From positions 699,294 through 763,293 of the forward strand of contig CAVXWK010000001.1 in assembly GCA_963765435.1 (NCBI GenBank): 64,000 nucleotides of DNA. Reading direction: 5' to 3'. A program made the position numbers and the translations under genes. Shown here piece after piece: positions 5,236-37,222 of the stretch (its first letter is position 1; every line of letters begins with the position of its first letter). Origin of the DNA: an uncultured delta proteobacterium (GTDB taxonomy: Bacteria > Desulfobacterota > BSN033 > UBA1163). Under the pieces are notes generated by a model that did no database searches, was not told the origin of the DNA, and was given only the letters and a program-made list of their open reading frames with translations.

Positions 5236-5284
5236 TAACCCCCCTCTTTCCCCCCTTAATTTAACGGGGGATGAAGGGGGGTTA
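5236..5284. repeat. 48-bp double-hairpin palindromic element (copy A)
   Basis: TAACCCCCCTCTTTCCCCCCTTAATTTAACGGGGGATGAAGGGGGGTTA; near-identical copy at 16253-16302. Confidence 0.6.
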
Positions 5285-5324
5285 CATGAGAGAAAAACCG
5301 CCTCACCTTTCTCTTCTCCCCAGA

Positions 5325-10921: not shown

Positions 10922-11374
10922 TTACTCCTTAAACTTTTCTTTCTCAAGGGCCTCGATTTTTTCTAACCGTCTCTTGTGCCTGCCCCCGGCAAACGGGGTT
11001 TCCAACCAAACCTTCACGATTTCCTTTGCCAATTCCTTCCCGACGATTCGGCCACCGACGATGAGTATATTGGCGTCGTTATGCTCTCGACTACAACGGG
11101 AAGAGTAAAGATCGTTCGCCAGAGCCGCTCTGGTTCTCGGAAATTTATTGGCTACAATGGACATACCAATGCCGGTGCCGCAGACCAGGATCCCCTTTTC
11201 CAAATCCCCCCGAGAGACCTTCTCTGCTACCAGAACCCCAAAATCCGGATAATCCACTGAATCTTCGTTGAAGGTACCCATGTCGATGGGTTTGAAACCG
11301 AGGGATTTCAAAAAGGCCTTCAGCTCTTCCTTGAGCTCGAAGCCCCCATGGTCACAGGCCAAACCGATCTGCAT
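10922..11374 (-). CDS. rpiB: ribose-5-phosphate isomerase B
   Basis: MQIGLACDHGGFELK, LVCGTGIGMSIVANK. Confidence 0.85.
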   Translation of the reverse strand: MQIGLACDHGGFELKEELKAFLKSLGFKPIDMGTFNEDSVDYPDFGVLVAEKVSRGDLEKGILVCGTGIGMSIVANKFPRTRAALANDLYSSRCSREHNDANILIVGGRIVGKELAKEIVKVWLETPFAGGRHKRRLEKIEALEKEKFKE

Positions 11375-11377
11375 GCG

Positions 11378-12619
11378 TTATCCTTCAAATTTCTTGAAGA
11401 CGAGGGCGGCATTGGTGCCGCCAAACCCGAAGGCGTTGGACATGGCAATTCTCAATGGTTTTCGCCTTGCCACGTTGGGGACATAATCTAAATCACATTG
11501 TGGGTCGGGCTCCTCGTGGTTGAGGGTGGGCGGCATGATGCCATCCCGAATGGATAAAATGGTGAAAATGGCTTCAGTGCTTCCGGCCGCCCCTAAGAGA
11601 TGGCCGGTCATCGATTTGGTTGCACTCACGGGAACCTTTTTTGCATGGTCACCGAATACCTTTTTAATGGCAATCGTCTCGGTCAAGTCATTGAGCGGAG
11701 TGGAGGTCCCGTGGGCATTGATGTAGTCCACGTCCTCCGGCTTCAGCCCGGCATCCTTGATCGCCATCTTCATGCATCGTACTGCCCCATCGCCATCCGG
11801 GGATGGGGCAGTGATATGATAAGCGTCGCCTGTGTAGCCATAGCCTACCAGCTCCGCATAGATCTTTGCTTTCCGATTTAAGGCAAACTGTAATTCTTCT
11901 AAGACAAGAATTCCTGCACCCTCTGCTATCACAAAACCGTCGCGATTCTTCTCAAATGGCCGGCTGGCCTTCTGCGGTTCGTCGTTTCTCGTAGAAAGCG
12001 CCTTCATCGCATTGAACCCGCCGACGGTGAGTGGGGTGATGTTGGCTTCGGTCCCGCCTGCAATCATCGCCTCCGCATCCCCGTAAACAATGGCGCGAAA
12101 CGCATCTCCAATACAATGAGCTCCCGTCGCACAGGCGGTGACCACACACGTATTCGGCCCCTTGGGGCCAAACAGGATCGCAATCTGCCCAGAGGCCAAA
12201 TTGGCAATGAGCATCGGGATGAAGAATGGAGTAATTCGGCTCGGTCCTTTTTCCATAAGGACTTTGTGATATTTTTCGATGCTGGGCAATCCTCCCAAAC
12301 CCGTCCCCACGATCACGCCGATCTGTTCGGAGTTCTCGGGAGTGATAGCCAACCGGGCGTCGCCCAGGGCCTCCTTCGTGGCTGCAATGGCATAATGAAT
12401 GAAGAGATCCATTTTCTTGATCTCTTTCTTATCGATGTACAGTTCTGGGTTGAAGTTTCGCACCTCCCCCGCGATCTTCGTCTCAAATCCGTTTGAGTCG
12501 AACCGCGTGAGAGGACCGATGCCTGATTTTCCCTCACAGACATTCTTCCACGCCGTTTCGACTCCGATCCCGATGGGGATCACCAACCCTATTCCGGTGA
12601 CGACAACCCTTCTTCCCAA
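11378..12619 (-). CDS. fabF: 3-oxoacyl-[ACP] synthase II
   Basis: [11 protein letters not shown], active-site Cys context [22 protein letters not shown]. Confidence 0.9.
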
Positions 12620-12657: not shown

Positions 12658-12894
12658 TTACTGCGTCACGTGGGCCTGAATATATTCAATGGCATCTCCA
12701 ACGGTGAGGATCTTCTCTGCCTCTTCGTCGGAGATCTCTATATTGTATTCCTCCTCCAGAGCCATGACCAATTCCACCAAATCGAGAGAATCCGCTCCTA
12801 AGTCGTCAACGAATTTGGCCTCTGGAGCCACCTCGTTTTCATTGACACCCAACTGCTCTACGATAATCTCTTTCACTCTCTTGTCAATAGACAT
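12658..12894 (-). CDS. acpP: acyl carrier protein
   Basis: LGADSLD phosphopantetheine-attachment motif; start at MSIDKRV (internal M of longer ORF). Confidence 0.9.
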
Positions 12895-12919: not shown

Positions 12920-13675
12920 TCACATATAGATGCCACCGTTCACATTCAATACCTGACCGGTAATATAACTCGATTCTTCGCAAACGAGGAAAAGCACGGC
13001 TTCGGCTACGTCTTCGGGCTTCCCCAACCGCTCCATGGGGATGAGCTTCTTTAATTCCTCCTTCGCCTTTTCCGGAAGGGCATCGGTCATCGGCGTTTCG
13101 ATATATCCGGGCGCAATGGCATTGACGTTGATCCCTCTTTGCGCGTACTCCCTCGCAATGGTTTTGGTCAAACCGATGACGCCGGCCTTTGAGGCGGAGT
13201 AGTTCGCCTGTCCTGCATTCCCCATCTCCCCGACCACGGAGGCGATATTGACGATCTTGCCGCTTCGCTGTTTCGCCATGTGTCGAATGACCGTCTTGGT
13301 ACAGTTGAACGTTCCCTTCAGATTCACGCCAAGAACGGCATCCCAATCCTCCTCTGTCATTCTGAGGATGAGTTTGTCACGAGTAATGCCAGCATTATTC
13401 ACTAAAATATCGATCTTGGCAAGCTTTTCTATGATGGCCTCCACCATCCGCTCCACATCGCTCAGATTGGAGACGTCCACTCTGACCGCCGTCGCTTTTG
13501 GGCCAATCGCCCTAATCTCTTTTGCCGTCTCCTCGGCCTTCTCAAGATTGATGTCGGAGACAACGATATCGGCCCCGTTTCGAGCAAGAAGCAGGGCAAT
13601 CGCTCTCCCGATCCCCTGAGCCGCACCCGTCACCAAAGCCACTTTCCCCGTCAGCTTCAACCCTTCCTCCGTCAA
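12920..13675 (-). CDS. fabG: 3-oxoacyl-[ACP] reductase
   Basis: [27 protein letters not shown] motifs. Confidence 0.9.
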
Positions 13676-13928
13676 TCAAAAAATCGCAAAGGGCTCGCCG
13701 CATAGCGCAAAGCGTCAAACGGCGCTCAACTTGTTTGTCATCATATCATAATATGAAGAACCGTTGGATGCGCCACACTAGCGCAGTAAATCTAACACTT
13801 CTTTACAACAATAAAAGTTGTCCTTCCCGCGAAGGCGGGAATCCAGCTTATAAAGACTGGATTCCGGATCAAGTCCGGAATGACGGCGTCTGTAAAGCAA
13901 TTTACGGGCGCCACTTTAGCGCTGTGCG

Positions 13929-14849
13929 CTATGCTATGCTCTTTAGAGTCTTGAGGTCTTCTATGTTCTTCGTCTCCACACGACTATCGATCCGTTTCAT
14001 CAGACCTGAGAGAACTTTTCCAGGGCCCACTTCCAAGATCTGCTCAATCCCTTTTTCGATCATCTTCCTCATGGACTCTTCCCAGCGAACAGGGCTTGAT
14101 ACCTGAGCTATCAACAATTCCTTCACCCTATCTTTCGAGGTATTGGCCTCTGCCTCTACGTTCGTCACCACCGGGATCTTCAGATCGTTAACAGAAATCT
14201 CTTCCAACGCCTTCTCCAGACGCTCCGCTGCCGGTTTCATCAGAGGAGAATGAAACGGGGCGCTGACCGGAAGCAGGACCGCTTTCTTTCCATCCTGTTT
14301 TATTCTCTCAATGGCCCGCTCGACCGCTTTCGAATGACCGGCGATGACGATCTGACCCGGGCTATTAAAATTCGCAGGAGTGAGAACCTCGCCGGAGGAA
14401 ATCTCTTCGCAAAGTTTTTCTACCTGTTCCCTCTCCATACCGAGGACAGCTGCCATGGCCCCTTCTCCCACCGGCACGGCCTCCTGCATAAACTTCCCGC
14501 GGAGACGGACAATCTTCACGGCCTGCGAGAAGGCGAGCGCTTCGGAGGCGACCAAAGCGCTGTATTCTCCGAGGCTGTGCCCCGCTGCGAGCTGCGGGGC
14601 TACGCCTTTCTCCGCCTGAAGCACCTTGAGCGCGGCAACACTCGTTGTCAGCACGGCGGGTTGGGTATTTTCGGTCAGCCTTAGCGCTTCTTCAGGGCCC
14701 TTAAAACAGAGATCGGTTATGGAGAAATGAAGGGCATCATCCGCCTCCTCAAAAATCTCTCTCGCCACACTGAAATTTTCGAAGAGTTCCCTTCCCATTC
14801 CCACATATTGGGACCCTTGTCCAGGAAAGGTCAAAGCTGTCTTTTTCAT
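13929..14849 (-). CDS. fabD: malonyl CoA-ACP transacylase
   Basis: FPGQGSQYVGMG, GHSLGEYSAL motifs. Confidence 0.9.
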   Translation of the reverse strand: MKKTALTFPGQGSQYVGMGRELFENFSVAREIFEEADDALHFSITDLCFKGPEEALRLTENTQPAVLTTSVAALKVLQAEKGVAPQLAAGHSLGEYSALVASEALAFSQAVKIVRLRGKFMQEAVPVGEGAMAAVLGMEREQVEKLCEEISSGEVLTPANFNSPGQIVIAGHSKAVERAIERIKQDGKKAVLLPVSAPFHSPLMKPAAERLEKALEEISVNDLKIPVVTNVEAEANTSKDRVKELLIAQVSSPVRWEESMRKMIEKGIEQILEVGPGKVLSGLMKRIDSRVETKNIEDLKTLKSIA

Positions 14850-14976
14850 ATAGGATTTCTCGGTTAAGGTTAGGGTTAAGAAGCCCGTTTGGTCGAGAGG
14901 TTAAGTCATTTGTGCTGAACCTTTTACACTTAACCCCTTCACCAAGAACGAAACCGGCTTCCTCGCCCTCGCCGAC

Positions 14977-16146
14977 CTACGTTCCCTTCTTCCCTGCATA
15001 TTCCTTGCTCAATTCCAAACCGATGACATTCCGCTGGATCTGATTCGTCCCTTCGTAGATCTGGAGAATTTTTGCATCCCGCATCATCTTCTCCACGGGA
15101 TAATCCCTCATATACCCGTAGCCTCCGAAGACTTGAACCGCGTCGGTGGTCACTTTCATAGCCACATCACTGGCAAAGACTTTAGCCATTCCGGAGACCT
15201 TCGAAATCTCTTTGGGGTTTTCCGATTGATCGACATAGCGGGCGACCGAATAGACCAAGGCCCTCGCGGCCTCTACGAGAGTCGCCATATCGGCTAACAT
15301 GTGCTGAACCGCCTGGAAAGAAATGATCTTCTTTTCAAACTGCTCTCGTTCTCTGGCGTAACGGACCGCTTCATCGAGTGCCCCCTGGGCCAACCCGACA
15401 CCCTGAGCGCCCACCCCGGGTCGGGTCCGATCAAACGTCCTCATGGTGACGATAAATCCCATTCCTTCTTTTCCAATCAGATTTTCCTTGGGAACAAAAC
15501 AGTCCTGGAAGACGAGCTCCCGCGTCGCAGACGACCGGATCCCCATCTTCTTCTCTTTCTTCCCAAAATTGAAGCCCGGGGTTCCCTTCTCCACAATCAA
15601 AGCGCTCGCGCCTCTGGGACCTTTCGACCGGTCGGTCATCGCGATTACCGAGTAGGTTTCCGCCTCACCGCCGTTGGTAATCCACTGCTTCGTTCCGTTC
15701 AAAACATATCCTTCTCCCTTTCGCGTAGCAATGGTTCGGATAGAACCTGCGTCACTTCCCGCATCCGCTTCGGTCAACCCGAATGCAGCCAATTTCTTCC
15801 CTTTGGCAATGTCCGGCAGGTATTTTTTCTTCTGTTCAGGGCTTCCAAAAAGCAGGATGGGCATCGCGCCCAATCCGCTTGCGACGATACTGGTTGCGAT
15901 CCCGAGACAGACACGGCTCAATTCCTCTGCAACCAAACAATATTCTAAGATACCTCCTCCAAAACCGTCGTACTCCTCCGGCATGGAGACGCCCATGAGG
16001 CCCGCTTCCGCGCTGATCTTAACGATCTCCCACGGAAATTCCTCCTTCTCGTCCAATTCGGCGCGCGCGGGCAGCATTTTTTCCTGGGCGACCTTCCTTG
16101 CTAAATCCCGAATCATTTTTTGTTCTGGTGTGAGAAAATAATCCAA
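14977..16146 (-). CDS. acyl-CoA dehydrogenase (short-chain/butyryl-CoA dehydrogenase-like)
   Basis: full ACAD three-domain architecture (TEADAGSDAGS, QVFGGYGYMRDYPVEKMMRDAKILQIYEGTNQIQR). Confidence 0.85.
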   Translation of the reverse strand: MDYFLTPEQKMIRDLARKVAQEKMLPARAELDEKEEFPWEIVKISAEAGLMGVSMPEEYDGFGGGILEYCLVAEELSRVCLGIATSIVASGLGAMPILLFGSPEQKKKYLPDIAKGKKLAAFGLTEADAGSDAGSIRTIATRKGEGYVLNGTKQWITNGGEAETYSVIAMTDRSKGPRGASALIVEKGTPGFNFGKKEKKMGIRSSATRELVFQDCFVPKENLIGKEGMGFIVTMRTFDRTRPGVGAQGVGLAQGALDEAVRYAREREQFEKKIISFQAVQHMLADMATLVEAARALVYSVARYVDQSENPKEISKVSGMAKVFASDVAMKVTTDAVQVFGGYGYMRDYPVEKMMRDAKILQIYEGTNQIQRNVIGLELSKEYAGKKGT

Positions 16147-16252: not shown

Positions 16253-16302
16253 TAACCCCCCTCTGTTCCCCCCTTAAATTAAGGGGGGATGAAGGAGGGT
16301 TA
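16253..16302. repeat. 48-bp double-hairpin palindromic element (copy B)
   Basis: overlaps plsX stop codon, about 105 bp upstream of the acyl-CoA dehydrogenase start. Confidence 0.6.
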
Positions 16303-17355
16303 ACGTATCGATTTAACCTCCCCGTTCACCCGATCCGGTCGTTTTTGCCCCAGACGAAACAGATCCTCTTTCTCCTTAAGCTCTTCAATGACATGCTCGT
16401 TCAGTCTATTCTTGGCCAAGTTTGAGGCCAAGAGAATGGCATTCATGATCGCCTTGCCATTCGACGAACCATGGCAGATGAGGCAGTTGCCGTTAATCCC
16501 CAAGAGGGGCGCTCCTCCAACTTCTGCATAGTCAAGCCTCTTTTCCAGGCGACGAATCGCCCGCCCCATCAGGAAATAGGCCGCTTTCGCTCTAATATTA
16601 TCCTCTGCTTCCTGCTTGAGAATCGCGTGGATGGTCTCCCAGAGCCCTTCGCTTACCTTTAACGCCACATTTCCAACGAAACCGTCGCATACCATGACAT
16701 CCACTTCTCCGTTGTTGAGATCCCGGCCCTCCACGTAACCGACATAGTTCAAATCGGTCTCCGACAAAATATCATGCACCTCTCGCGTCAGCTCATTTCC
16801 TTTCCCTTCTTCCTCTCCGTTGCTCAACACGCCAATTCGAGGGCTTTCCTTTCCCAGGATATATTTTGCATAGGCATCCCCCATCATTGCAAACTGGACA
16901 AGATGAAAGGGTTTGCAATCCACCGTGCCGCCGGAATCAATGAGGACCGTGCTGCCTTTGGTGGTGGGATGGATCGTGGCAATAGCAGGCCGTTCCACGC
17001 CTTCCAATTTTTTCAAGATATACATCGCCAAACCCATGGCCGCTCCTGAATTTCCGGCGGAGACCACGCCGCTGGCCTGACCCTCTTTTGCCAGATCGAG
17101 GGCAACCTTGATCGAGGTATCTTTCATCCTCCGGATGACCGTCGACGGAGAGTCATGCATGGCAACCACGAATGGAGCATGGTGGATGTAGATCGCGAGT
17201 TTTGAGGTAGGGTATTTGGACAGTTCCTTGCTTACTTGATCCTCGTCCCCCACCAAAACCACCTTGACCCCGTATTCCTTTGCCGCTAAGACGGCTCCCT
17301 CCACAATCCCTTGAGGGGCAAAATCCCCTCCCATCGCATCGACCGCAATCTTCAT
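16300..17355 (-). CDS. plsX: phosphate acyltransferase PlsX
   Basis: MKIAVDAMGGD start, PlsX family. Confidence 0.9.
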   Translation of the reverse strand: MKIAVDAMGGDFAPQGIVEGAVLAAKEYGVKVVLVGDEDQVSKELSKYPTSKLAIYIHHAPFVVAMHDSPSTVIRRMKDTSIKVALDLAKEGQASGVVSAGNSGAAMGLAMYILKKLEGVERPAIATIHPTTKGSTVLIDSGGTVDCKPFHLVQFAMMGDAYAKYILGKESPRIGVLSNGEEEGKGNELTREVHDILSETDLNYVGYVEGRDLNNGEVDVMVCDGFVGNVALKVSEGLWETIHAILKQEAEDNIRAKAAYFLMGRAIRRLEKRLDYAEVGGAPLLGINGNCLICHGSSNGKAIMNAILLASNLAKNRLNEHVIEELKEKEDLFRLGQKRPDRVNGEVKSIR

Positions 17356-17510: not shown

Positions 17511-17696
17511 TTACTTCTCTTCTTCCACCTTGATCACCTCTCTCCCTTTGTAAGTCCCACAATGGGGACAGACATGATGGGGGAGTAAAGGCTCATGACA
17601 TTGAGGACACAGAGAGACATTAGGAGCAGCCAGTTTATCATGGGCTCGACGTTGACCCCTTTTGGATGCTGATGTTCTCCTTTTCGGAACTCCCAT
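17511..17696 (-). CDS. rpmF: 50S ribosomal protein L32
   Basis: MGVPKRRTS...CPQCHE...CPHCG. Confidence 0.9.
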
Positions 17697-17797: not shown

Positions 17798-18349
17798 TTA
17801 ATCAAGCTTTAATTTCTTAAGAGCCGAAAACCCTGATCCAAATTCCTCCTTTACGCATTCACAGGAAGAGAGATTTAGATCTTTTCCACATTTCGGGCAA
17901 AGCCCTTTGCATCCCTCCTGACAGACGGGCTGGTAGGGGATTTCCAAAAAAATCTGTTCGCAGGCGATCTCGGAAAGCTGAATTTCTCCTCCCTCGAAGA
18001 AACTCGACTCCATCTCCTCGCTCCCGACTTCGGTCTCTTCCTCAGAGGGAGCCTCTTTTAAGGGATGGAGCGTGAGCTCAAAGGTAGTGGCGAGAGGATA
18101 GGAGAATTCCTTCAAGCATCTTACACATTGGAATCGAAGAGTGACCTCGACCTTCCCCGTAATCAAGACCGATTGCCCCGCCTTCTGGATCTTTACCTCT
18201 GCCTGAAGCGGGGTCTCGAAGTCGAAGTCGATCCTTGAAAAGCCTTTCAGGTAGGCCAACAAGGTGGCCTTTTCTTCCTTCCACTGTAGATCCAGACCCT
18301 GTTCAGGAATTTCATCCAATTTCAAAGCAAACATTTGGTTTCCGCTCAT
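17798..18349 (-). CDS. yceD: DUF177/YceD-family protein (large-subunit accumulation protein)
   Basis: located upstream of rpmF; C-terminal CxxC...CxxC. Confidence 0.8.
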   Translation of the reverse strand: MSGNQMFALKLDEIPEQGLDLQWKEEKATLLAYLKGFSRIDFDFETPLQAEVKIQKAGQSVLITGKVEVTLRFQCVRCLKEFSYPLATTFELTLHPLKEAPSEEETEVGSEEMESSFFEGGEIQLSEIACEQIFLEIPYQPVCQEGCKGLCPKCGKDLNLSSCECVKEEFGSGFSALKKLKLD

Positions 18350-18542
18350 TTACGTCAAATTAAACAAATAAATATATAAAAAAAATTTTGTTTGTCAAGA
18401 GAAATTGGGATTTGGCGGAGTGCGAAGGTTTTGGTTTGAAAAAAAAACCTCAGTATGTTAACAAATTTGCAGATAGTCTCGCAAGGGTTTGTGGAAAAAA
18501 CTCACCGAGTTGGCCCAAAAGGTCTGTTGAGGAGGGAAAAAG

Positions 18543-20036: not shown

Positions 20037-20105
20037 AATTACTAGGGACCGTCATTCCGGACTTGATCCGGAATCCAGTCCTTTCAACCGAATTCCCGGT
20101 TTAGG

Positions 20106-21105: not shown

Positions 21106-21276
21106 TCACTTGTCAAGAGGACCCCTTACACCGAGCACGTTCTTTGAGGCAACATGAGTGTAGATCATGGTGGTCTGGAGTTTTTGATAGCCGAGCAGTT
21201 CTTGACTCGTCCTGAAATCATATCCATTTTCAAGCAGGTATCCCGCAAACCGCTGTTCCAATGTATGGACAGAAAC
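21106..21276 (-). pseudogene. intI: integron-integrase (IntI-like tyrosine recombinase) C-terminal remnant B
   Basis: rc translation [56 protein letters not shown]; stop immediately upstream, no start codon. Confidence 0.6.
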
Positions 21277-21347
21277 CTATTTTGTTATCCCCGTTTGCTG
21301 CACTGCAGGCCTAAATGCCCGCTTTGACAGGGGGGGAAGTATTATGG

Positions 21348-21755
21348 TTAAAGCGGCTTTTTCATGTAAAGATTGTCAAGGGGGCTTTTTGGAATACTTA
21401 CCATATCTCTTATCACATGGGTGTAGATCATTGTGGTTTCAAGATGCTTATGACCCAGTAAACTCTGGATCTCCCTGATATTCACTCCGTTCATTAAAAG
21501 ATGTGTTGCGAAACTGTGTCTGAGGGTATGCACGGATGCGTGTTTCACAATGCCTGCCTTTTTCAGGGCCTCTTTTACAGCATTCTGAATCGCCTTCTCG
21601 CTTACATGGTGGCGTCTTATCTTTCCGCTTCTTGGGTCAACCGAGCGTTTTGATGAGGGGAAAACATACTGCCAGCCCCATTCTTTTGCGGCATTTGGAT
21701 ATTTGCGTTCCAGAGCATCTGGAAGGTAGACCTCCCCATGTCCTTCTGAATAGAC
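21348..21755 (-). pseudogene. intI: integron-integrase (IntI) C-terminal remnant A (N-terminal ~200 aa missing)
   Basis: [41 protein letters not shown] (IntI-specific patch) ...[12 protein letters not shown]...TTMIYTHV...SPLD; in-frame stop at 21756-58. Confidence 0.7.
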
Positions 21756-23908: not shown

Positions 23909-24373
23909 GTGGAGATTAAGAAGATATGCGTGTTAGGTGCGGGATTAATGGGTAACGGTATTGCTCAGGTTTGTGCTCAGGCGGGCTATGAAGTCAGCCT
24001 ACGGGATATCGAAAAGATGTTCCTCGATAACGGGATGAATACGATCAAGAAAAATCTGAGCCGCGAGGTTGCAAAAGGAAAGCGAACCCAAGAAGACGCA
24101 GATGCGATTCTGGGCAGAATAAAACCAACGCTCGATCTCAAGGAAGCCGCAAAAGATGCAGACATCATTATGGAAGTCGTGATTGAAGTCATGGATATCA
24201 AGAAAAAAGTCTATCAGGAACTGAAAGGAATTGTAAAACCTGATGGCCTTATTTTTAGCAATACATCCAGCTTGAGCATCACGGCGATGGCTGCAGCAAC
24301 GGACAGACCAGATAGATTCTATTGCAAAGAGTACAAAAGACGGGCTCTTGATCTCCGGGACAAAATGCTATAA
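23909..24373 (+). pseudogene. 3-hydroxyacyl-CoA (3-hydroxybutyryl-CoA) dehydrogenase, 3'-truncated
   Basis: ICVLGAGLMGNGIAQV NAD-binding N-terminal domain; sequence departs from family after SNTSSLSIT and stops; C-terminal domain absent. Confidence 0.6.
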
Positions 24374-25127
24374 CACGAATGCACCAAAGTCTAAATATAC
24401 CGTCCTTTATGGGACCGAGGATCCAACCGCCGATGATGCAGAAAATCCAATGTCTCAAAGCCTCATTCCTTTAAAAGATCCGACGATCACTGTAGAACGG
24501 GTTTTTATCCCAACCGTTCCAAAGGTTCATATTGGTAAAGAGACTTTCAAGGAAACACTTGTTCCCAATAAAAGAATACTCTGCGATGTGGGCAAGGGGA
24601 AATTCGGCCTGTTTGAAGGGCTTGCTGTCGAAAGGATAGGTATTGCCATATCCGCCGTCTGCCAGTGCTGGAGCTCTCTGATGCACGCTACAATCTATTC
24701 GAATTTGAGAAAACAGTTTGGCCAAGAGGTAAGCAGATTCCAGGGTGTAGGCTTCTTGCTGGCTGAATATTATGCAAAGGTTTCGACTATAACATTTGCT
24801 ACCCTTGCCTTCGCCCGGGGTTATGATGAAGCCGTTAAAAAGCACAAGGGCCATCTGCCTGATATACTCACTCAACAATATGTAATGGCTGCCTCGCAGA
24901 TGAAATATCAAGCAACACATCTTTCTGAACGATGCTGCTATGAGATGTGTAATATTATGGGCGGGAACGGCCTTAATGATAATACCTTAATGGATGACCT
25001 GATGGGTTTATCGCGAATCCAGGAGATAATAGGCGGATTCAGAGAGATTCAGCTTTCATATCATGATGGGCGCCATAAAAAAGATGTGGAGATTGATATA
25101 AACTATCCTTTGCTTATCCTATTCTAA
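24348..25127 (+). pseudogene. acyl-CoA dehydrogenase C-terminal fragment (N-terminal domain missing, degenerate)
   Basis: RIGIAISAV...FGQEVSRFQGVGFLLAEYYAKV ... GGNGLNDNTLMD resembles ACAD middle/C-terminal domains only. Confidence 0.5.
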
Positions 25128-25140
25128 GGAGGTTGATTCT

Positions 25141-26607
25141 ATGGCTTTAAAAACTAAGGAAGCATATTTTGAAAGTATCAGGCAATTGAATCTGCCCGTT
25201 TATGTAATGGGAGAGAAAGTTACAAACGTGGATCATCCCATGATCTGGCCTTCCATCAATAGCGTGGGAGTTACCTACGATCTTGCCCAGGATCCGCAAT
25301 ATGATGATCTGGCAACAGCCACATCGCATATCACGGGCAAAAAGATTAACCGTTTCTGTCATATCCATCAAAGTACGGAAGACCTGAGAAAGAAAATAAA
25401 ACTCCTCCGCCTGATGGGTCAAAAGACGGCGTCCTGCTTTCAGCGTTGTGCGGGTCTTGATGTGATGAATGCCCTCAATGCGACAACCTACGAAATGGAT
25501 GCGGATCTGAAAACGGAATATCATCAGAGATTTCTGAATTTTTTAAAGATCATACAGGAAGAGGATCTGGTCTGCGATGCGGCCATGACCGATGCGAAAG
25601 GAGATCGCTCCCTGCCTCCGAGCCAGCAGGCGGATCCTGACATGTATTTACATATCGTCAAGAAAGACGCCAAGGGCATTGTCGTGCGTGGTTGCAAAGC
25701 CCATCAAACCGGCGCTACCAATTCCCATTGGATAGCGGTGGTTCCCACCACAGCAATGAAAGAGGCGGATAAGGATTATACTGTTGCCTTTGTTACACCC
25801 TCTAACACTAAGGGGATCACCTATGTTTATGGCCGTCAGTCCTGCGACACGCGGAAGATAGAGGATGGTACCATCGATGTGGGAAACCTCAATTTTGGAG
25901 GACAAGAGGCATACATAATTTTTGATGATGTTTTCGTCCCCTGGGAGAATGTTCTCATGTGCGGCGAGACTGAGTATTCGGGGCGACTTGTTGAAATATT
26001 CGCTAATTACCACCGTACCAGCTATGGAGGTTGCAAGGTCGGCGTTGCCGATGTCCTAATCGGAGCTGCATCATTGATGACAGTATACAATGGTACGGCC
26101 AAAGCCTCCCATGTCAAGGACAAGCTGACAGAAATGGTTCACCTCGCCGAAACATGCCATGCGTGTGCGCTTGCCGCTCAATCCGAAGGAAGCCGTCACA
26201 GTTCCGGAGGCTATCTCGTGAACGGGTTATTGGCCAATGTCTGTAAACTCAATATTACCAGATTCCCTGCGGAGATTTCGCGTCTAACTCAGGATCTGGC
26301 GGGAGCTGTTATTGGGACAACTCCCTCGGAAAAGGATTTTGAGATACCCGGTGATGTCGGTAAACTCATGAAGAAGTATTTGAAAGGTCTGGCGGATGTT
26401 TCCTGGGAGGACAGGGTTCGCTGCATTCGGCTGATTGAGAACATCACGATGGGAACAGGAGCCGTAGCATTCTTTACGGAGTCGATTCATGGGGCTGGTT
26501 CCCCGCAGGCACAGAAAGTGATGATTTCCCGCTATAGCAATGTGAACATGAAAGAGAAAATGGCCAAAAAGATCGCGGGAATTCCAGACGACTCGGATAG
26601 TAAATAA
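25141..26607 (+). CDS. 4-hydroxybutyryl-CoA dehydratase/vinylacetyl-CoA isomerase-family (HpaB-like) protein
   Basis: 488 aa; family-typical length and motifs (recalled AbfD/HpaB fold). Confidence 0.7.
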   Translation: MALKTKEAYFESIRQLNLPVYVMGEKVTNVDHPMIWPSINSVGVTYDLAQDPQYDDLATATSHITGKKINRFCHIHQSTEDLRKKIKLLRLMGQKTASCFQRCAGLDVMNALNATTYEMDADLKTEYHQRFLNFLKIIQEEDLVCDAAMTDAKGDRSLPPSQQADPDMYLHIVKKDAKGIVVRGCKAHQTGATNSHWIAVVPTTAMKEADKDYTVAFVTPSNTKGITYVYGRQSCDTRKIEDGTIDVGNLNFGGQEAYIIFDDVFVPWENVLMCGETEYSGRLVEIFANYHRTSYGGCKVGVADVLIGAASLMTVYNGTAKASHVKDKLTEMVHLAETCHACALAAQSEGSRHSSGGYLVNGLLANVCKLNITRFPAEISRLTQDLAGAVIGTTPSEKDFEIPGDVGKLMKKYLKGLADVSWEDRVRCIRLIENITMGTGAVAFFTESIHGAGSPQAQKVMISRYSNVNMKEKMAKKIAGIPDDSDSK

Positions 26608-26787: not shown

Positions 26788-27978
26788 ATGTCTAATGACG
26801 TAGTTGTGGCGGAAATGGGTAGGACAGCGGTGGGAAGGATGGGAGGTGGACTTGCCAATGTGCCATCCATCGAACTGGCCACCTTTATTATCTCTTCGAT
26901 TATGAAGAGGGTCAACTTCGATCCGGCGGAGATCAACGAAGTTATCCTGGGTAATGTGGAGAACCGGAGCAACGAAGCGTGTCTGGCCCGCTGGGCAGGT
27001 CAGCTGACCGGGTTGCCCGTCTCGGTAGTCGGATACGGCATCAACAAACTGTGCGGATCCAGTCTGAAGGCTTTGCATAATGCAGCGGATTCAATATTGG
27101 TCGGACGTAATGACGTAGTTCTGGCAGGCGGCGTGGAAAACATGTCCCAATACCGCTACGCCCTGAATAAAGCCAGGTTCGGGTACCGCATGGGAGACGA
27201 CATTCTGATAGATACCCTGATGCAGGTACTGGCGGATAATCCTGATCCGCAAAAACGGCCGGCGGCGCAAACAGCAGAAAATCTGGCTAAAATGTACAAA
27301 ATTACCCGGGAGGATCAGGATATTTTTGCCTACACAAGTCAGCAGAGAGCCATATCGGCGATCAAGGAAGGTAAGTTCAGAGAAGAGATCATTCCCATTG
27401 AGGCGAAAGTCAGCAAGAAAGAAACAAAAATCATTGATACGGATGAGCACCCCCGTGCGGAAACCACAGTGGAAGGACTCGCCAAGTTGTCCCCCATTAT
27501 TCCGAGCGGGACAGTTACGGCCGGCAATGCCTGCGGCATCAATGACGGGGCATCCCTCATGATGCTCATGAGTGAGAAGAAGGCCCAGGAGCTAAAGATG
27601 AAACCGATTGCCAAGATCAGAGGGTATGCGTCGGCTGGTGTCCCAATGCACATCTTCGGCATCGGTCCAGCCCCGGCTATAAGGGCTTCATTGAAAAGAG
27701 CGAACTTGAATCTGGGTGATATGGGGCTAATTGAGATCAATGAAGCGTTTGCCGCCCAGGTTATTGCCTGTGAAAAAGAACTGGGGCTGGACCACAACAT
27801 AGTCAACGCGGATGGCGGTGCCATCGCCTTGGGCCATGCCTTGGGCAACACGGGCACAAGGATCAGCATTACCCTTCTGAAAGAAATGGTCCGCAGAAAA
27901 TGCAAATACGGCGTCAGCAGTGCCTGCATCGGATCGGGATTGGGCATCGCCGTCGTTTGGGAGAACCTGAAATTATAG
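26788..27978 (+). CDS. acetyl-CoA C-acetyltransferase (thiolase)
   Basis: thiolase active-site contexts (NKLCGSSLKA, GNACGINDGAS, C-terminal CIGSGLG). Confidence 0.9.
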   Translation: MSNDVVVAEMGRTAVGRMGGGLANVPSIELATFIISSIMKRVNFDPAEINEVILGNVENRSNEACLARWAGQLTGLPVSVVGYGINKLCGSSLKALHNAADSILVGRNDVVLAGGVENMSQYRYALNKARFGYRMGDDILIDTLMQVLADNPDPQKRPAAQTAENLAKMYKITREDQDIFAYTSQQRAISAIKEGKFREEIIPIEAKVSKKETKIIDTDEHPRAETTVEGLAKLSPIIPSGTVTAGNACGINDGASLMMLMSEKKAQELKMKPIAKIRGYASAGVPMHIFGIGPAPAIRASLKRANLNLGDMGLIEINEAFAAQVIACEKELGLDHNIVNADGGAIALGHALGNTGTRISITLLKEMVRRKCKYGVSSACIGSGLGIAVVWENLKL

Positions 27979-36047: not shown

Positions 36048-36908
36048 TCATGCTGCAAGTTGCCTTGTATAGAACTGCCGCTCATAGACAACCGGAGAAA
36101 GGTACCCCAGCCGTGCTTGCCGTCTTTGCCGATTGTAGAATACCTCGATGTATTCCGTGATCTCCCGGATGGCCTGCTCTCTCGTCTTGAAGCGACAGTG
36201 ATGGACAAGCTCATTCTTGAGCGTACCCCAGAAGCTCTCCATGGGAGCATTGTCGTAGCAGTCGCCCTTCCTGCTCATAGATGCTCTCATCTTGAACTGA
36301 TCCACCAGCTTCCGGTATTCATGGGCGCAGTACTGACTCCCACGATCCGAATGGTGAATCAGGCCTGCTCCGGGCCGTTTGGCTGCCACGGCTCTGAACA
36401 GAGACTGGCTCACCAGGTTCTTGGTGAGACGATTGCCCATGGCATATCCAACGATTTCTCCCGTGCAGAGGTCCTTATGCCCTGCCAGATAGAGCCAGCC
36501 TTCTTCTGTGGGGATATAGGTAATGTCGCTGACCCAAACCTCGTTCGGCGTCGTTGCCTTAAACTGCTGATTGAGCAGATTCTGTGCCACAGGCAGAGCA
36601 TGCTTCGAATCCGTGGTGGCCTTGAACTTCCTCTTCTGCTTACACCGTAACCCAAGCTTCTTCCTGATCCGTCTGATCCGGCAGATCCCGACCTTTACAC
36701 CCTGTTCTTTGAGCTCATGCTGTAATCTCTCTGGACCGCACGTCTCACGGGTCCTCTTGTGGGCGGCTTTTATCTCTACTTCCAGCCTTCCCTCTTCCAG
36801 GACACGTTTGGAAGGCTTGCGCCTGAACCATTGGTAATAACCGCTCTTGGATACACGCAGAATACGGCACATCATCCCAATACAATACTTGAATCGCATT
36901 GCTTTCAT
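36048..36908 (-). CDS. IS3-family transposase OrfB (DDE integrase core)
   Basis: SDITYI...HSDRGSQY...DNAPMESFWGTLK motifs. Confidence 0.85.
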   Translation of the reverse strand: MKAMRFKYCIGMMCRILRVSKSGYYQWFRRKPSKRVLEEGRLEVEIKAAHKRTRETCGPERLQHELKEQGVKVGICRIRRIRKKLGLRCKQKRKFKATTDSKHALPVAQNLLNQQFKATTPNEVWVSDITYIPTEEGWLYLAGHKDLCTGEIVGYAMGNRLTKNLVSQSLFRAVAAKRPGAGLIHHSDRGSQYCAHEYRKLVDQFKMRASMSRKGDCYDNAPMESFWGTLKNELVHHCRFKTREQAIREITEYIEVFYNRQRRQARLGYLSPVVYERQFYTRQLAA

Positions 36909-37222
36909 GATCGCGTACCTGGCAGCGACTCCTTCGCAAAGTACACGGCCGCTTTTTTTAATATGTCTCGCTCCATCCTGGCTTCTGCCAGTTCACGCTT
37001 CACCCGGGCAAGCTCCATCTCTATTTCCGTAAGCGGCCTCTGGTGCTTTCCAACCTCCTTAAGCTTGCCTTCTCTGCTCGCCTTAACCCAGTACCGTATT
37101 GTCGAGGCCGCAACCGATAACCGACGCCCCACCTCCGGTATCTTTAATCCGCCTTCTGTTACGAGCTTCACTGCTTCCTCTCGAAGTTCCTTCGTGTAGA
37201 TTGCTCTCGGAATCCTTTCCAT
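36905..37222 (-). CDS. IS3-family transposase OrfA (HTH)
   Basis: 105 aa helix-turn-helix, overlaps orfB start; frameshift site likely. Confidence 0.8.
   Translation of the reverse strand: MERIPRAIYTKELREEAVKLVTEGGLKIPEVGRRLSVAASTIRYWVKASREGKLKEVGKHQRPLTEIEMELARVKRELAEARMERDILKKAAVYFAKESLPGTRS

What the first reader, a model, noticed from the sequence alone, without database searches (positions are those of the whole stretch)
14977..16146. Acyl-CoA dehydrogenase occupies the fabH position in the plsX-fabD-fabG-acpP-fabF cluster
Gene order on the minus strand is yceD-rpmF-plsX-ACAD-fabD-fabG-acpP-fabF. The ketoacyl-ACP synthase III gene, normally between plsX and fabD, is absent from the window. 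It is replaced by a complete butyryl-CoA-dehydrogenase-like ACAD, which is catabolic, inside a biosynthetic operon. A 48-bp palindromic element lies just upstream of it.
Basis: partly seen in the sequence, partly recalled or inferred. Interest (0 to 1): 0.5.

Follow-up and report, generated by a model that had tools for sequence, protein, structure and literature searches.

The report
Conserved acyl-CoA dehydrogenase inside fatty-acid-synthesis operon
A flavoenzyme normally linked to fat breakdown sits inside the fat-making operon of this uncultured anaerobe and of relatives in at least three phyla, usually with an electron-bifurcating-type flavoprotein partner, which makes it a candidate for a new kind of enoyl reductase in bacterial fatty acid synthesis rather than a substitute for fabH.

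Summary
The minus-strand order is yceD-rpmF-plsX-ACAD-fabD-fabG-acpP-fabF-rpiB. The ACAD is complete, and the 64-kb window holds no fabH. Three independent assemblies show the same arrangement.

The reading that the ACAD replaces fabH is not supported. Of 80 species-level plsX loci, 26 carry an orthologue of this ACAD (64-98% identity) in the same operon. In 13 of those 26, fabH lies directly in front of it. In 12 it is accompanied by etfB-etfA, whose products are closest to CarDE and other electron-bifurcating Etfs.

Other lineages hold the enoyl-ACP reductase FabK, or a FabL-like SDR, between fabH and fabD. The ACAD is as conserved as FabF and AcpP. It forms a tight clade separate from canonical butyryl-CoA dehydrogenases, and it lacks their helix-E insertion.

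My best reading, at about 0.4 and from context only, is an Etf-dependent enoyl-thioester (enoyl-ACP) reductase of FAS II. The window's lineage has lost etfBA and fabH from the cluster. I found no literature on this arrangement.

The upstream palindrome is a repeated REP-like insertion, not an ACAD-specific signal.

The parts
18371..18398 (-). Sigma-70-like promoter match (TTGACA-16-TATATT, 11 of 12) upstream of yceD. Candidate start of the operon.
   Evidence: This is a consensus match only.
17798..18349 (-). yceD (DUF177), first gene of the cluster.
   Evidence: PF02620, E 3e-30
17511..17696 (-). rpmF (ribosomal protein L32).
   Evidence: PF01783
16300..17355 (-). plsX (phosphate acyltransferase).
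   Evidence: PF02504, E 6e-111
16253..16302 (.). About 50-nt palindromic REP-like element in the plsX-ACAD spacer. It starts at the plsX stop codon.
   Evidence: Second copy at 5236-5286. Absent from the same spacer in L001.
14977..16146 (-). The ACAD: 389 aa, FAD acyl-thioester dehydrogenase of a distinct clade associated with the fab operon. Catalytic Glu365 lies in YEGT. It has no Bcd-type helix-E insertion.
14850..14976 (.). 127-bp ACAD-fabD spacer that forms a long imperfect hairpin. It is an insertion relative to L001, where ACAD and fabD overlap by ATGA.
13929..14849 (-). fabD (malonyl-CoA:ACP transacylase).
13855..13886 (.). 32-nt REP-like piece (CGTCATTCCGGACTTGATCCGGAATCCAGTC) in the fabD-fabG spacer. 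It is repeated exactly, in inverted orientation, at 20049-20080.
12920..13675 (-). fabG (3-oxoacyl-ACP reductase).
12658..12894 (-). acpP (acyl carrier protein, 78 aa from the ATG).
11378..12619 (-). fabF (KAS II).
10922..11374 (-). rpiB, the conserved last gene of the syntenic block.

Best explanation
**Proposal.** The gene encodes a functional FAD-dependent acyl-thioester dehydrogenase/reductase. It belongs to a distinct, tightly conserved clade that is an integral part of the type II fatty-acid-synthesis operon in several anaerobic lineages: Thermodesulfobacteriota, Nitrospirota, Ca. Schekmanbacteria and others. It does not replace FabH.

**Mechanism (inferred).** It most likely works in the reductive direction, like Bcd, CarC or AcrC. 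It would reduce the trans-2-enoyl thioester made in each elongation round, most probably enoyl-ACP, and so fill the enoyl reductase step of FAS II.

**Electron supply (inferred).** Electrons would come from NADH through an electron-bifurcating-type EtfBA. That would allow ferredoxin to be co-reduced. In relatives this Etf is encoded directly downstream. In the window's lineage etfBA and fabH have left the cluster and must be encoded elsewhere.

**Shown:**
- the gene and its intact catalytic apparatus
- its operon membership
- its conservation and clade structure
- its Etf partner in relatives
- the equivalence of its slot to that of FabK or a FabL-like SDR

**Inferred:**
- the direction of catalysis
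- an ACP-bound substrate
- bifurcation
- the existence of an Etf elsewhere in this genome
For: 1. **Synteny.** 26 of 80 species-representative plsX loci carry the orthologue between plsX or fabH and fabD or fabG. Five further contigs do so too.
2. **Translational coupling.** 4-bp overlaps with fabD (L001, L003, L004, L009, L019) or fabG (L039) follow from the ORF coordinates; the ATGA itself was read in L001.
3. **Conservation.** In every locus the ACAD is as conserved as FabF and AcpP, and more conserved than PlsX and FabD. An example across phyla is 67% against 64, 68, 55 and 51%. That is the behaviour of a core housekeeping enzyme that co-evolves with FAS.
4. **Partner.** etfB-etfA accompanies it in 12 GTDB loci. 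EtfA and EtfB match CarE and CarD over their full length, including the 2x[4Fe-4S] domain (E 7.5e-124 and 4.9e-79). The next matches are other bifurcating Etfs. Non-bifurcating Etfs score only 1e-45 and 1e-26.
5. **Sister lineage.** L018 and L091 have the window's exact context plus etfBA between ACAD and fabD.
6. **Slot.** Other lineages, some within Nitrospirota, carry FabK between fabH and fabD (TIGR03151, 512 and 484 bits against a cut-off of 453) or a FabL-like SDR. No locus has both an ACAD and one of these.
7. **Closest relatives.** The nearest solved or curated relatives are ACADs that run reductively with Etf: Bcd of A. fermentans and C. difficile (54% identity), and AcrC.
8. **Not a canonical C4 enzyme.**
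   - The clade is separate from the Bcd clade.
   - It lacks the one-residue helix-E insertion of 1BUC, 4L1F and 5OL2.
   - It has Ala/Ser and Val/Ala where MCAD has Gln95 and Glu99.
   - From my recollection of published ACAD structures, these features predict a deeper acyl pocket.
9. **No butyrate-pathway genes.** No crt, hbd or thl genes accompany it in any fab cluster.
Against: - There is no biochemical evidence of any kind.
- No etfBA lies in the 64-kb window or within 10 kb in 11 related loci.
- A search with the sister lineage's EtfA did not reveal a copy on this genome's 2.97-Mb contig. Only the top 120 hits are listed, so this is inconclusive.
- I could not test whether ACAD-bearing genomes lack FabI, FabK, FabL or FabV.
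- A 72%-identical clade member sits outside any fab cluster (pmbA-ACAD, next to rrf2-cydAB).
- By sequence the enzyme resembles CoA-dependent ACADs, not the known carrier-protein-dependent ones.
- Ordinary ACAD/Etf pairs do not run in reverse (preprint 10.1101/2024.07.05.601840).
- The pocket-depth argument rests on an alignment plus structural literature I recall from memory. I could not retrieve that literature.
Confidence: 0.4

Rival explanations
1. It is an ordinary short- or medium-chain acyl-CoA dehydrogenase, or a crotonyl-CoA reductase, of central CoA-ester metabolism. It happens to be parked in the fab operon and acts only on CoA esters, with no role in fatty acid synthesis.
For: - The best solved matches are CoA-dependent Bcds.
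- All sources annotate it as butyryl-CoA dehydrogenase.
- One 72%-identical clade member lies outside any fab cluster.
- The window also encodes crotonyl-CoA-type enzymes: an AbfD-like protein and a thiolase.
Against: - Its position inside the operon is kept across at least three phyla, with translational coupling to fabD or fabG.
- Its conservation tracks the FAS core.
- No crt, hbd or thl genes lie nearby in any cluster.
- It falls outside the Bcd clade and lacks the Bcd helix-E insertion.
- It reaches no curated NCBIfam equivalog cut-off.
Confidence: 0.25
2. It acts as an acyl-ACP dehydrogenase (with or without isomerase activity) for anaerobic unsaturated-fatty-acid synthesis. It would be the ACAD-fold counterpart of Helicobacter FabX: it re-oxidises a saturated acyl-ACP to trans-2-enoyl-ACP and so feeds a cis-3 branch.
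For: - It is embedded in the FAS operon.
- There is precedent for a flavoenzyme that backtracks in FAS II (FabX, PMC8626469).
- ACADs that act on carrier-protein-bound acyl groups exist (4IRN, MbtN).
- The pocket is predicted to be deeper than in Bcd.
Against: - The associated Etf is of the NADH-using bifurcating type typical of reductive systems.
- The slot matches that of enoyl reductases, not FabA, FabM or FabX.
- There is no sequence affinity to the known ACP-dependent ACADs.
Confidence: 0.15
3. It supplies primers. It would make butyryl-CoA or another saturated short acyl-CoA from the enoyl-CoA as a starter for FAS. It would thus be an adjunct to FabH, or a functional replacement for it in lineages without fabH in the cluster. 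This is the nearest version of the first reader's idea.
For: - It lies adjacent to fabH in 13 loci.
- It has Bcd-like sequence.
- An acetyl-CoA synthetase gene follows etfA in L028; L038 has an untested 631-aa ORF at the same place.
Against: - The ACAD is retained unchanged where fabH is absent from the cluster: the window lineage, L018, L039 and L091.
- An ACAD cannot perform a Claisen condensation.
- It lacks the C4-type helix-E insertion.
- No thiolase, hbd or crt genes that would make crotonyl-CoA lie in the clusters.
Confidence: 0.1
4. It is an artefact: a misassembly, a chimeric contig or a recent insertion of a foreign gene with no function.
For: REP-like insertions flank the gene in this genome.
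Against: - Independent assemblies are identical.
- 11 related species-level genomes share the order.
- Identity of 82-98% across the lineage indicates purifying selection.
- GC content (0.53) is in line with its neighbours.
Confidence: 0.01

Closest known systems
Butyryl-CoA dehydrogenase of the electron-bifurcating Bcd-EtfAB complex (Acidaminococcus fermentans 4L1F; Clostridioides difficile 5OL2)
   Same: - It is the best solved match: E 3e-121 and 1e-120, 54% identity.
- It has the same three-domain ACAD fold and the catalytic Glu in YEGT.
- In relatives it is paired with an etfB-etfA of the bifurcating type.
   Different: - It forms a separate clade and lacks the helix-E one-residue insertion.
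- It has Trp instead of Phe at MCAD position 166, and TEA instead of TEP in the conserved loop.
- In 12 of 13 members it is neutral to basic (pI 6.9-8.8; L018 5.8) against about 5 for Bcd.
- It sits in a FAS II operon rather than a crt-bcd-etf-hbd operon.
- This genome has no adjacent etf.
Caffeyl-CoA reductase-Etf complex CarCDE of Acetobacterium woodii (6FAH)
   Same: - The Etf subunits next to the ACAD in relatives match CarE and CarD over their full length, including the N-terminal 2x[4Fe-4S] ferredoxin domain of CarE.
- CarC is an ACAD that works reductively. It matches the window ACAD at E 1e-94.
   Different: - Substrate and context differ: phenylacrylate respiration against a fatty-acid-synthesis operon.
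- The ACAD is closer to Bcd than to CarC.
Acryloyl-CoA reductase AcrC (Clostridium propionicum), NCBIfam NF042972
   Same: It is the best curated family hit, and it is a reductive ACAD that works with an Etf.
   Different: The score is 445 bits against a cut-off of 640, so the window ACAD is not a member.
Known enoyl-ACP reductases FabI, FabL, FabV (SDR-type) and FabK (FMN TIM barrel)
   Same: - The operon position is the same as FabK in L056, L064 and L077, and as the FabL-like SDR in L071 and L076.
- The proposed reaction is the same.
- Like FabK, it is a flavoprotein.
   Different: - The fold and cofactor arrangement are unrelated.
- It would need an external electron carrier (Etf).
- No activity data exist.
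Carrier-protein-dependent ACADs (prolyl-ACP dehydrogenase 4IRN, TcsD 6CXT, MbtN)
   Same: They have the ACAD fold and act on thioesters tethered to a carrier protein. This shows the fold can accept ACP-bound substrates.
   Different: - They are only distantly related (E ~1e-57; MbtN model 70 of 700 bits).
- They work oxidatively in secondary metabolism.
Helicobacter pylori FabX
   Same: It is a flavoenzyme that acts on acyl-ACP within FAS II (PMC8626469).
   Different: It has a different fold (FMN/[4Fe-4S], FabK-like). It is a dehydrogenase/isomerase, not a reductase.

Membership tests
Acyl-CoA dehydrogenase superfamily (ACAD) | Three domains: N-terminal alpha, middle beta, C-terminal alpha (PF02771, PF02770, PF00441). 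| tested here: met
   all three domains match end to end, at E 5e-38, 2.5e-26 and 1e-51.
Acyl-CoA dehydrogenase superfamily (ACAD) | A catalytic base Glu in the C-terminal Y-E-G-T motif (MCAD Glu376), and FAD-contacting Thr136 and Thr168. | tested here: met
   Y/E/G at MCAD 375-377 and T136, S142, T168 are invariant in all 13 members of the clade. This is Glu365 in the window protein.
Canonical butyryl-CoA dehydrogenase (Bcd) of Bcd-EtfAB | Groups with characterised Bcds (1BUC, 4L1F, 5OL2). | tested here: not met
   the NJ tree puts the fab-linked clade on a separate branch. Identity is 48-54%, against at least 64% within the clade.
Canonical butyryl-CoA dehydrogenase (Bcd) of Bcd-EtfAB | A one-residue insertion in helix E that makes the pocket shallow. 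I recall this feature from the M. elsdenii BCD structure paper and did not retrieve it here. | tested here: not met
   the insertion is present in 1BUC, 4L1F, 5OL2C and 5LNX. It is absent in all clade members, as in MCAD.
Canonical butyryl-CoA dehydrogenase (Bcd) of Bcd-EtfAB | Encoded next to etfB-etfA of the bifurcating type. | tested here: not met
   - Window: no Etf in 64 kb.
- Relatives: the feature is met in 12 GTDB loci and in L083, L084, L088 and L091.
Canonical butyryl-CoA dehydrogenase (Bcd) of Bcd-EtfAB | Sits in a butyrate-pathway context (crt, hbd, thl). | tested here: not met
   the flanking genes are plsX/fabH and fabD/fabG only.
NCBIfam curated ACAD equivalogs (AcrC, cyclohexane-1-carbonyl-CoA DH, Gcd, FadE and others) | Score above the curated cut-off. 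| tested here: not met
   the best score is 444.9 bits against a cut-off of 640. No model reaches its cut-off.
FabH / KAS III | ACP_syn_III and ACP_syn_III_C domains, thiolase fold. | tested here: not met
   the gene has ACAD domains only; there is no FabH-like sequence anywhere in the window.
Enoyl-ACP reductases (FabI, FabK, FabL, FabV) | Sequence membership in one of the four known families. | tested here: not met
   the fold is different. Any relation would be functional analogy only.
Enoyl-ACP reductases (FabI, FabK, FabL, FabV) | Catalyses NAD(P)H-dependent reduction of trans-2-enoyl-ACP. | not testable with these tools
   This needs an enzyme assay or complementation of fabI(Ts).
Enoyl-ACP reductases (FabI, FabK, FabL, FabV) | Encoded within the fab operon between fabH and fabD in some lineages (positional criterion). 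| tested here: met
   FabK occupies this slot in L056, L064 and L077, and a FabL-like SDR in L071 and L076. ACAD(-etfBA) occupies it in 26 loci. No locus has both.
Carrier-protein-dependent ACADs (MbtN, prolyl-PCP DH, TcsD, FkbI type) | Sequence affinity to the known members. | tested here: not met
   4IRN 5.6e-57 and 6CXT 1.9e-57, against 3e-121 for Bcd. MbtN 69.8 of 700 bits, RedW 260 of 650 bits.
Carrier-protein-dependent ACADs (MbtN, prolyl-PCP DH, TcsD, FkbI type) | Binds ACP rather than CoA. | tested here: inconclusive
   12 of 13 clade members are neutral to basic (pI 6.9-8.8; L018 5.8) against about 5 for Bcds, and they have clade-specific conserved Arg28, Lys117, Arg178 and Arg303. 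I did not map these residues onto a structure.

The most novel reading that the evidence does not exclude
The fab-operon ACAD, together with a CarDE-like EtfBA, is a previously unrecognised class of enoyl-ACP reductase. It would reduce enoyl-ACP with NADH while co-reducing ferredoxin by flavin-based electron bifurcation. Strict anaerobes would then recover low-potential electrons in every elongation cycle of fatty acid synthesis. In the window's lineage the ACAD would work with an Etf encoded elsewhere.
Probability: 0.3. Interest if true: 0.85.

Novelty: new variant of a known kind. Interest (0 to 1): 0.6.

Why it matters
**Energetics.** Enoyl reduction is the most exergonic step of fatty acid synthesis, and every known bacterial enoyl-ACP reductase simply dissipates that energy. 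An ACAD/Etf module in the FAS II operon of energy-limited anaerobes would be the first case of energy conservation inside lipid biosynthesis.

**Classification.** It would add a new, structurally unrelated class to FabI, FabK, FabL and FabV. That matters for genome annotation, because these genes are now all labelled as catabolic butyryl-CoA dehydrogenase. It also matters for metabolic models of syntrophs and Nitrospirota, and for reasoning about FabI-targeted inhibitors.

**If the reductase idea is wrong.** A housekeeping ACAD that co-evolves with FabF and AcpP across phyla still points to an undescribed step in anaerobic lipid synthesis.

**Testability.** The hypothesis can be tested directly by complementation and by in vitro assays.

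Tried and rejected
1. **Locating fabH, etfBA or a canonical enoyl reductase elsewhere in the genome.** This was not possible.
   - Loci extend only 10 kb to either side.
   - A search with the sister lineage's EtfA, looking for hits on the 2.97-Mb contig, found none among the 120 listed. This is inconclusive.
   - One apparent coincidence of contig length (P0503 and P0071, both 12,156 bp) turned out to be two different contigs.
2. **The palindrome as an ACAD-specific regulatory element.** Rejected. It has a second copy 11 kb away. It is missing from the same spacer in a near-identical relative. No T-tract follows it.
3. **Membership in the known acyl-ACP dehydrogenases.** Rejected on sequence.
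4. **Membership in any curated NCBIfam ACAD equivalog.** None reaches its cut-off.
5. **True FabI, FabK, FabH or Etf in the window or in the flanks of ACAD-bearing loci.** None was found, apart from the Etfs and FabHs already described.
6. **Literature.** Ten full-text searches combined enoyl-ACP reductase, ACAD, Etf, bifurcation, fab operon, plsX/fabH/fabD and Nitrospirota. None found a description of an ACAD/Etf module in a FAS II operon. The search meant to verify the Gln95/Glu99 pocket literature also found nothing, so that point rests on memory.
7. **Misassembly.** Rejected.
8. **Structure prediction.** Not run. The tool returns no coordinates, so neither pocket depth nor surface charge could have been measured.
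Full report
**1. What is in the window**

The minus strand between 10.9 and 18.4 kb carries nine genes:
- yceD (17798-18349)
- rpmF (17511-17696)
- plsX (16300-17355)
- a 389-aa acyl-CoA dehydrogenase, ACAD (14977-16146)
- fabD (13929-14849)
- fabG (12920-13675)
- acpP (12658-12894)
- fabF (11378-12619)
- rpiB (10922-11374)

Each was confirmed by Pfam. The ACAD has all three ACAD domains end to end. It starts at a TTG preceded by GAGAGGG.

A strong sigma-70-like match lies upstream of yceD. No terminator-like site on the coding strand falls in any spacer.

tblastn with FabH, EtfA, EtfB and FabK proteins from related loci finds nothing in the 64 kb. A recalled E. coli FabI finds only FabG-level similarity.

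The protein is identical to one from a MAG with a 2.97-Mb contig. The same gene order and spacer lengths occur in an NCBI MAG and in two independent Logan assemblies. The organism is an uncultured Thermodesulfobacteriota (Syntrophaceae-like) bacterium.

**2. The palindrome**

The element upstream of the ACAD is about 50 nt (16253-16302). It begins at the plsX stop codon and folds into a long hairpin.
- A second copy lies at 5236-5286 (93% identity).
- In L001, whose PlsX is 99% identical, the plsX-ACAD spacer is only 31 bp, and ACAD and fabD overlap by ATGA.
- In the window both spacers are 127-153 bp and hold hairpin elements.
- The fabD-fabG spacer holds a further 32-nt REP-like piece, repeated exactly at 20049-20080.

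These are small repeated palindromic insertions, not ACAD-specific signals.

**3. Is the ACAD a stand-in for fabH? No**

I fetched 80 plsX loci from species-representative genomes, chosen without regard to the ACAD. I classified the genes downstream of plsX.

| Group | Loci | Order downstream of plsX |
|---|---|---|
| Window's family-level lineage (PlsX 77-99%) | L001-L010, L015 | ACAD-fabD, as in the window where the contig extends that far; no fabH or etf within 10 kb |
| Other loci with an ACAD orthologue (64-75% identity) | 15 loci | ACAD in the same operon; four arrangements, listed below |

The arrangements in the second group are:
- plsX-fabH-ACAD-fabD (L019)
- plsX-fabH-ACAD-fabG (L012)
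- plsX-ACAD-etfB-etfA-fabD (L018)
- plsX-ACAD-fabG-acpP-fabF-etfB-etfA (L039)
- plsX-fabH-ACAD-etfB-etfA-fabD-fabG-acpP-fabF, or that order as far as the contig or local variants allow, in eleven Nitrospirota MAGs

Look-ups of individual proteins, with precomputed Pfam calls, gave the same picture:
- three more Nitrospirota-type contigs
- a Thermodesulfobacteriota MAG, L091: yceD-rpmF-plsX-ACAD-etfB-etfA-fabD-fabG-acpP-fabF-rpiB, with the same divergent carboxylase gene upstream as in the window
- a Candidatus Schekmanbacteria contig...etfA-fabD-fabG-acpP-fabF

So fabH and the ACAD coexist side by side in 13 of the 26 ACAD-bearing GTDB loci. plsX-fabD without fabH also occurs in lineages that have no ACAD (L027, L032, L060). 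The window's lineage is best read as a derived state in which fabH and etfBA have left the cluster.

**4. What kind of ACAD it is**

The best solved matches are the butyryl-CoA dehydrogenases of the bifurcating Bcd-EtfAB systems: 4L1F at E 3e-121 and 5OL2_C at 1e-120, both about 54% identical. Carrier-protein-dependent ACADs are far weaker (about 1e-57).

No curated NCBIfam equivalog is reached. The best is acryloyl-CoA reductase AcrC, at 445 bits against a cut-off of 640.

The fab-linked proteins form a tight clade of 64-98% identity. In a library clustered at 50% identity, the next full-length representatives are only 53-56% identical. An NJ tree places the clade apart from the canonical Bcd clade.

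Features of the clade:
- All members keep the catalytic Glu (YEGT) and the FAD-contact residues.
- All lack the one-residue helix-E insertion shared by 1BUC, 4L1F, 5OL2 and 5LNX.
- They have Ala/Ser and Val/Ala at the positions of MCAD Gln95 and Glu99.
- They have Trp at MCAD position 166, and a TEA instead of a TEP loop.
- In 12 of 13 members they are neutral to basic (pI 6.9-8.8; L018 5.8) where Bcds are about pI 5.

From my memory of the ACAD structural literature, the helix-E insertion makes the Bcd pocket shallow, and small residues at positions 95 and 99 deepen it in VLCAD. I could not retrieve those papers. If the recollection is right, these features predict acceptance of chains longer than C4.

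**5. The partner in relatives**

The EtfA next to the ACAD carries an N-terminal 2x[4Fe-4S] domain.
- EtfA matches CarE of the caffeyl-CoA reductase-Etf complex over its whole length (E 7.5e-124).
- EtfB matches CarD (E 4.9e-79).
- All the next-best hits are bifurcating Etfs: 4KPU, 7KOE, 7QH2 and 5OL2.
- Non-bifurcating Etfs score 1e-45 and 1e-26.

**6. Evidence for a role in fatty acid synthesis**

- **Position.** It is kept across at least three phyla. By ORF coordinates, 4-bp overlaps to fabD or fabG occur in six loci; the ATGA was read directly in L001.
- **Conservation.** In every locus the ACAD is as conserved as FabF and AcpP, and more conserved than PlsX, FabD or YceD. In Nitrospirota L030 the values are ACAD 67, FabF 64, AcpP 68, FabG 63, PlsX 55 and FabD 51%.
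- **Slot.** Between fabH and fabD, other lineages carry the enoyl-ACP reductase FabK (L056 and L064 above the TIGR03151 cut-off; L077 by Pfam). Others carry a FabL-like SDR (L071 and L076, below cut-off). Some of these lineages are within Nitrospirota. No locus combines an ACAD with one of these.
- **Neighbours.** No butyrate-pathway genes accompany the ACAD.

**7. Mechanism proposed**

The enzyme would be the enoyl-thioester reductase of FAS II, most probably acting on enoyl-ACP. It would run reductively like Bcd, CarC or AcrC. Electrons would come from NADH through a bifurcating-type Etf, which could co-reduce ferredoxin.

The gene, the clade, the operon membership, the Etf type and the slot equivalence are shown. 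The direction of catalysis, the ACP substrate, bifurcation and the existence of an Etf elsewhere in this genome are inferred. I put this at about 0.4.

**8. Evidence against, and rivals**

- There is no biochemistry.
- No etf lies near the gene in the window's lineage.
- I could not test whether canonical enoyl reductases are absent.
- A 72%-identical clade member is encoded away from any fab cluster (pmbA-ACAD, next to rrf2-cydAB).
- Sequence affinity is to CoA-dependent enzymes.
- Ordinary ACAD/Etf pairs do not run in reverse (10.1101/2024.07.05.601840).

The rivals are:

| Rival | Confidence |
|---|---|
| Plain CoA-level Bcd-like enzyme that is merely co-located | 0.25 |
| FabX-like acyl-ACP dehydrogenase for anaerobic unsaturated fatty acids | 0.15 |
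| Primer supply for initiation | 0.1 |
| Artefact | 0.01 |

**9. Comparison with what is known, and novelty**

The protein is a member of the ACAD superfamily. It is not a member of the canonical Bcd group, of any curated equivalog, of the carrier-protein-dependent ACADs, or of any known enoyl-ACP reductase family.

Ten full-text searches found no description of an ACAD/Etf module in a FAS II operon. All database names for these proteins are generic, such as butyryl-CoA dehydrogenase or AidB-like.

I rate it a new variant of a known kind: known parts (ACAD plus bifurcating Etf) in a new, conserved biosynthetic context.

For this particular window the finding is weaker than in relatives, because the Etf is missing from the cluster. 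The window did nevertheless lead to a widespread and apparently undescribed association. Interest is 0.6.

Noticed in passing
window 16253-16302 and 5236-5286: Two copies (93% identical) of a roughly 50-nt near-perfect palindrome: TAACCC(C/T)CC...CCCCCCTTAA(T/A)TTAAGGGGGG...GGGGGGTTA. Each forms a long hairpin, and each lies in an intergenic spacer on the minus-strand gene side. It is absent from the orthologous spacer of a relative whose PlsX is 99% identical. It looks like a REP/MITE-like mobile element.
   Followed up: partly
window 14850-14976; L008 4902-5020; L009 13159-13187; L026 9754-9793: The ACAD-fabD spacer is a 127-bp insertion that forms a long imperfect hairpin (GGGGTTAAGT...ACTTAACCTC core). 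Pieces of it recur in the fab-cluster spacers of related genomes.
   Followed up: partly
window 13855-13886 and 20049-20080: An exact 32-nt inverted duplicate, CGTCATTCCGGACTTGATCCGGAATCCAGTC, containing a TCCGGA-N5-TCCGGA hairpin. One copy lies in the fabD-fabG spacer. The other lies between two convergent genes. It is another REP-like repeat family.
   Followed up: partly
window 23909-25127: Two apparently truncated genes: a 154-aa ORF with only the NAD-binding half of a 3-hydroxyacyl-CoA dehydrogenase, overlapping a 259-aa ORF with only the C-terminal domain of an ACAD. They sit next to an intact AbfD/HpaB-like gene (25141-26607), a thiolase (26788-27978), a TetR regulator and a 4HBT thioesterase. 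The same truncated calls appear in the NCBI MAG, so this is not a sequencing error peculiar to the window. It may be the remnant of a deletion in a crotonyl-CoA pathway operon.
   Followed up: partly
window 21106-21548 and 36048-37222: Two short fragments of tyrosine-recombinase C-termini, and a pair of overlapping minus-strand ORFs (105 and 286 aa) that look like an IS3-type orfA/orfB but were not scanned against any family library. They suggest mobile-element activity near the fab cluster.
   Followed up: no
L032 5952-9615 and L037 3046-6676: In two other Thermodesulfobacteriota (one is Ca. Tharpella) a different ACAD sits directly upstream of rpmF-plsX-fabD, in the place of yceD. It is long (573 aa), only 33-35% identical to the window ACAD, and is preceded by its own etfB-etfA. 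This is a second, independent juxtaposition of ACAD/Etf with the fab cluster.
   Followed up: partly
L028 16237-18204; L038 15675-17570: In one Nitrospirota locus (L028) an acetyl-CoA synthetase gene, confirmed by Pfam, follows etfA and precedes a divergent FabD-like acyltransferase (42% identity). L038 has an untested 631-aa ORF at the same place.
   Followed up: no
protein P0254 (562 aa, from the representative library): A natural fusion of a related ACAD (48% identity) with a C-terminal EtfA-type FAD-binding domain. This is an independent hint that this branch of ACADs works in tight association with Etf.
   Followed up: no
L081 10001-11161 / L082 4199-5359: A clade member 72% identical to the window ACAD is encoded outside any fab cluster. 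It lies after pmbA and is convergent with rrf2-cydBA, among housekeeping genes (mutS, alaS, recA).
   Followed up: partly
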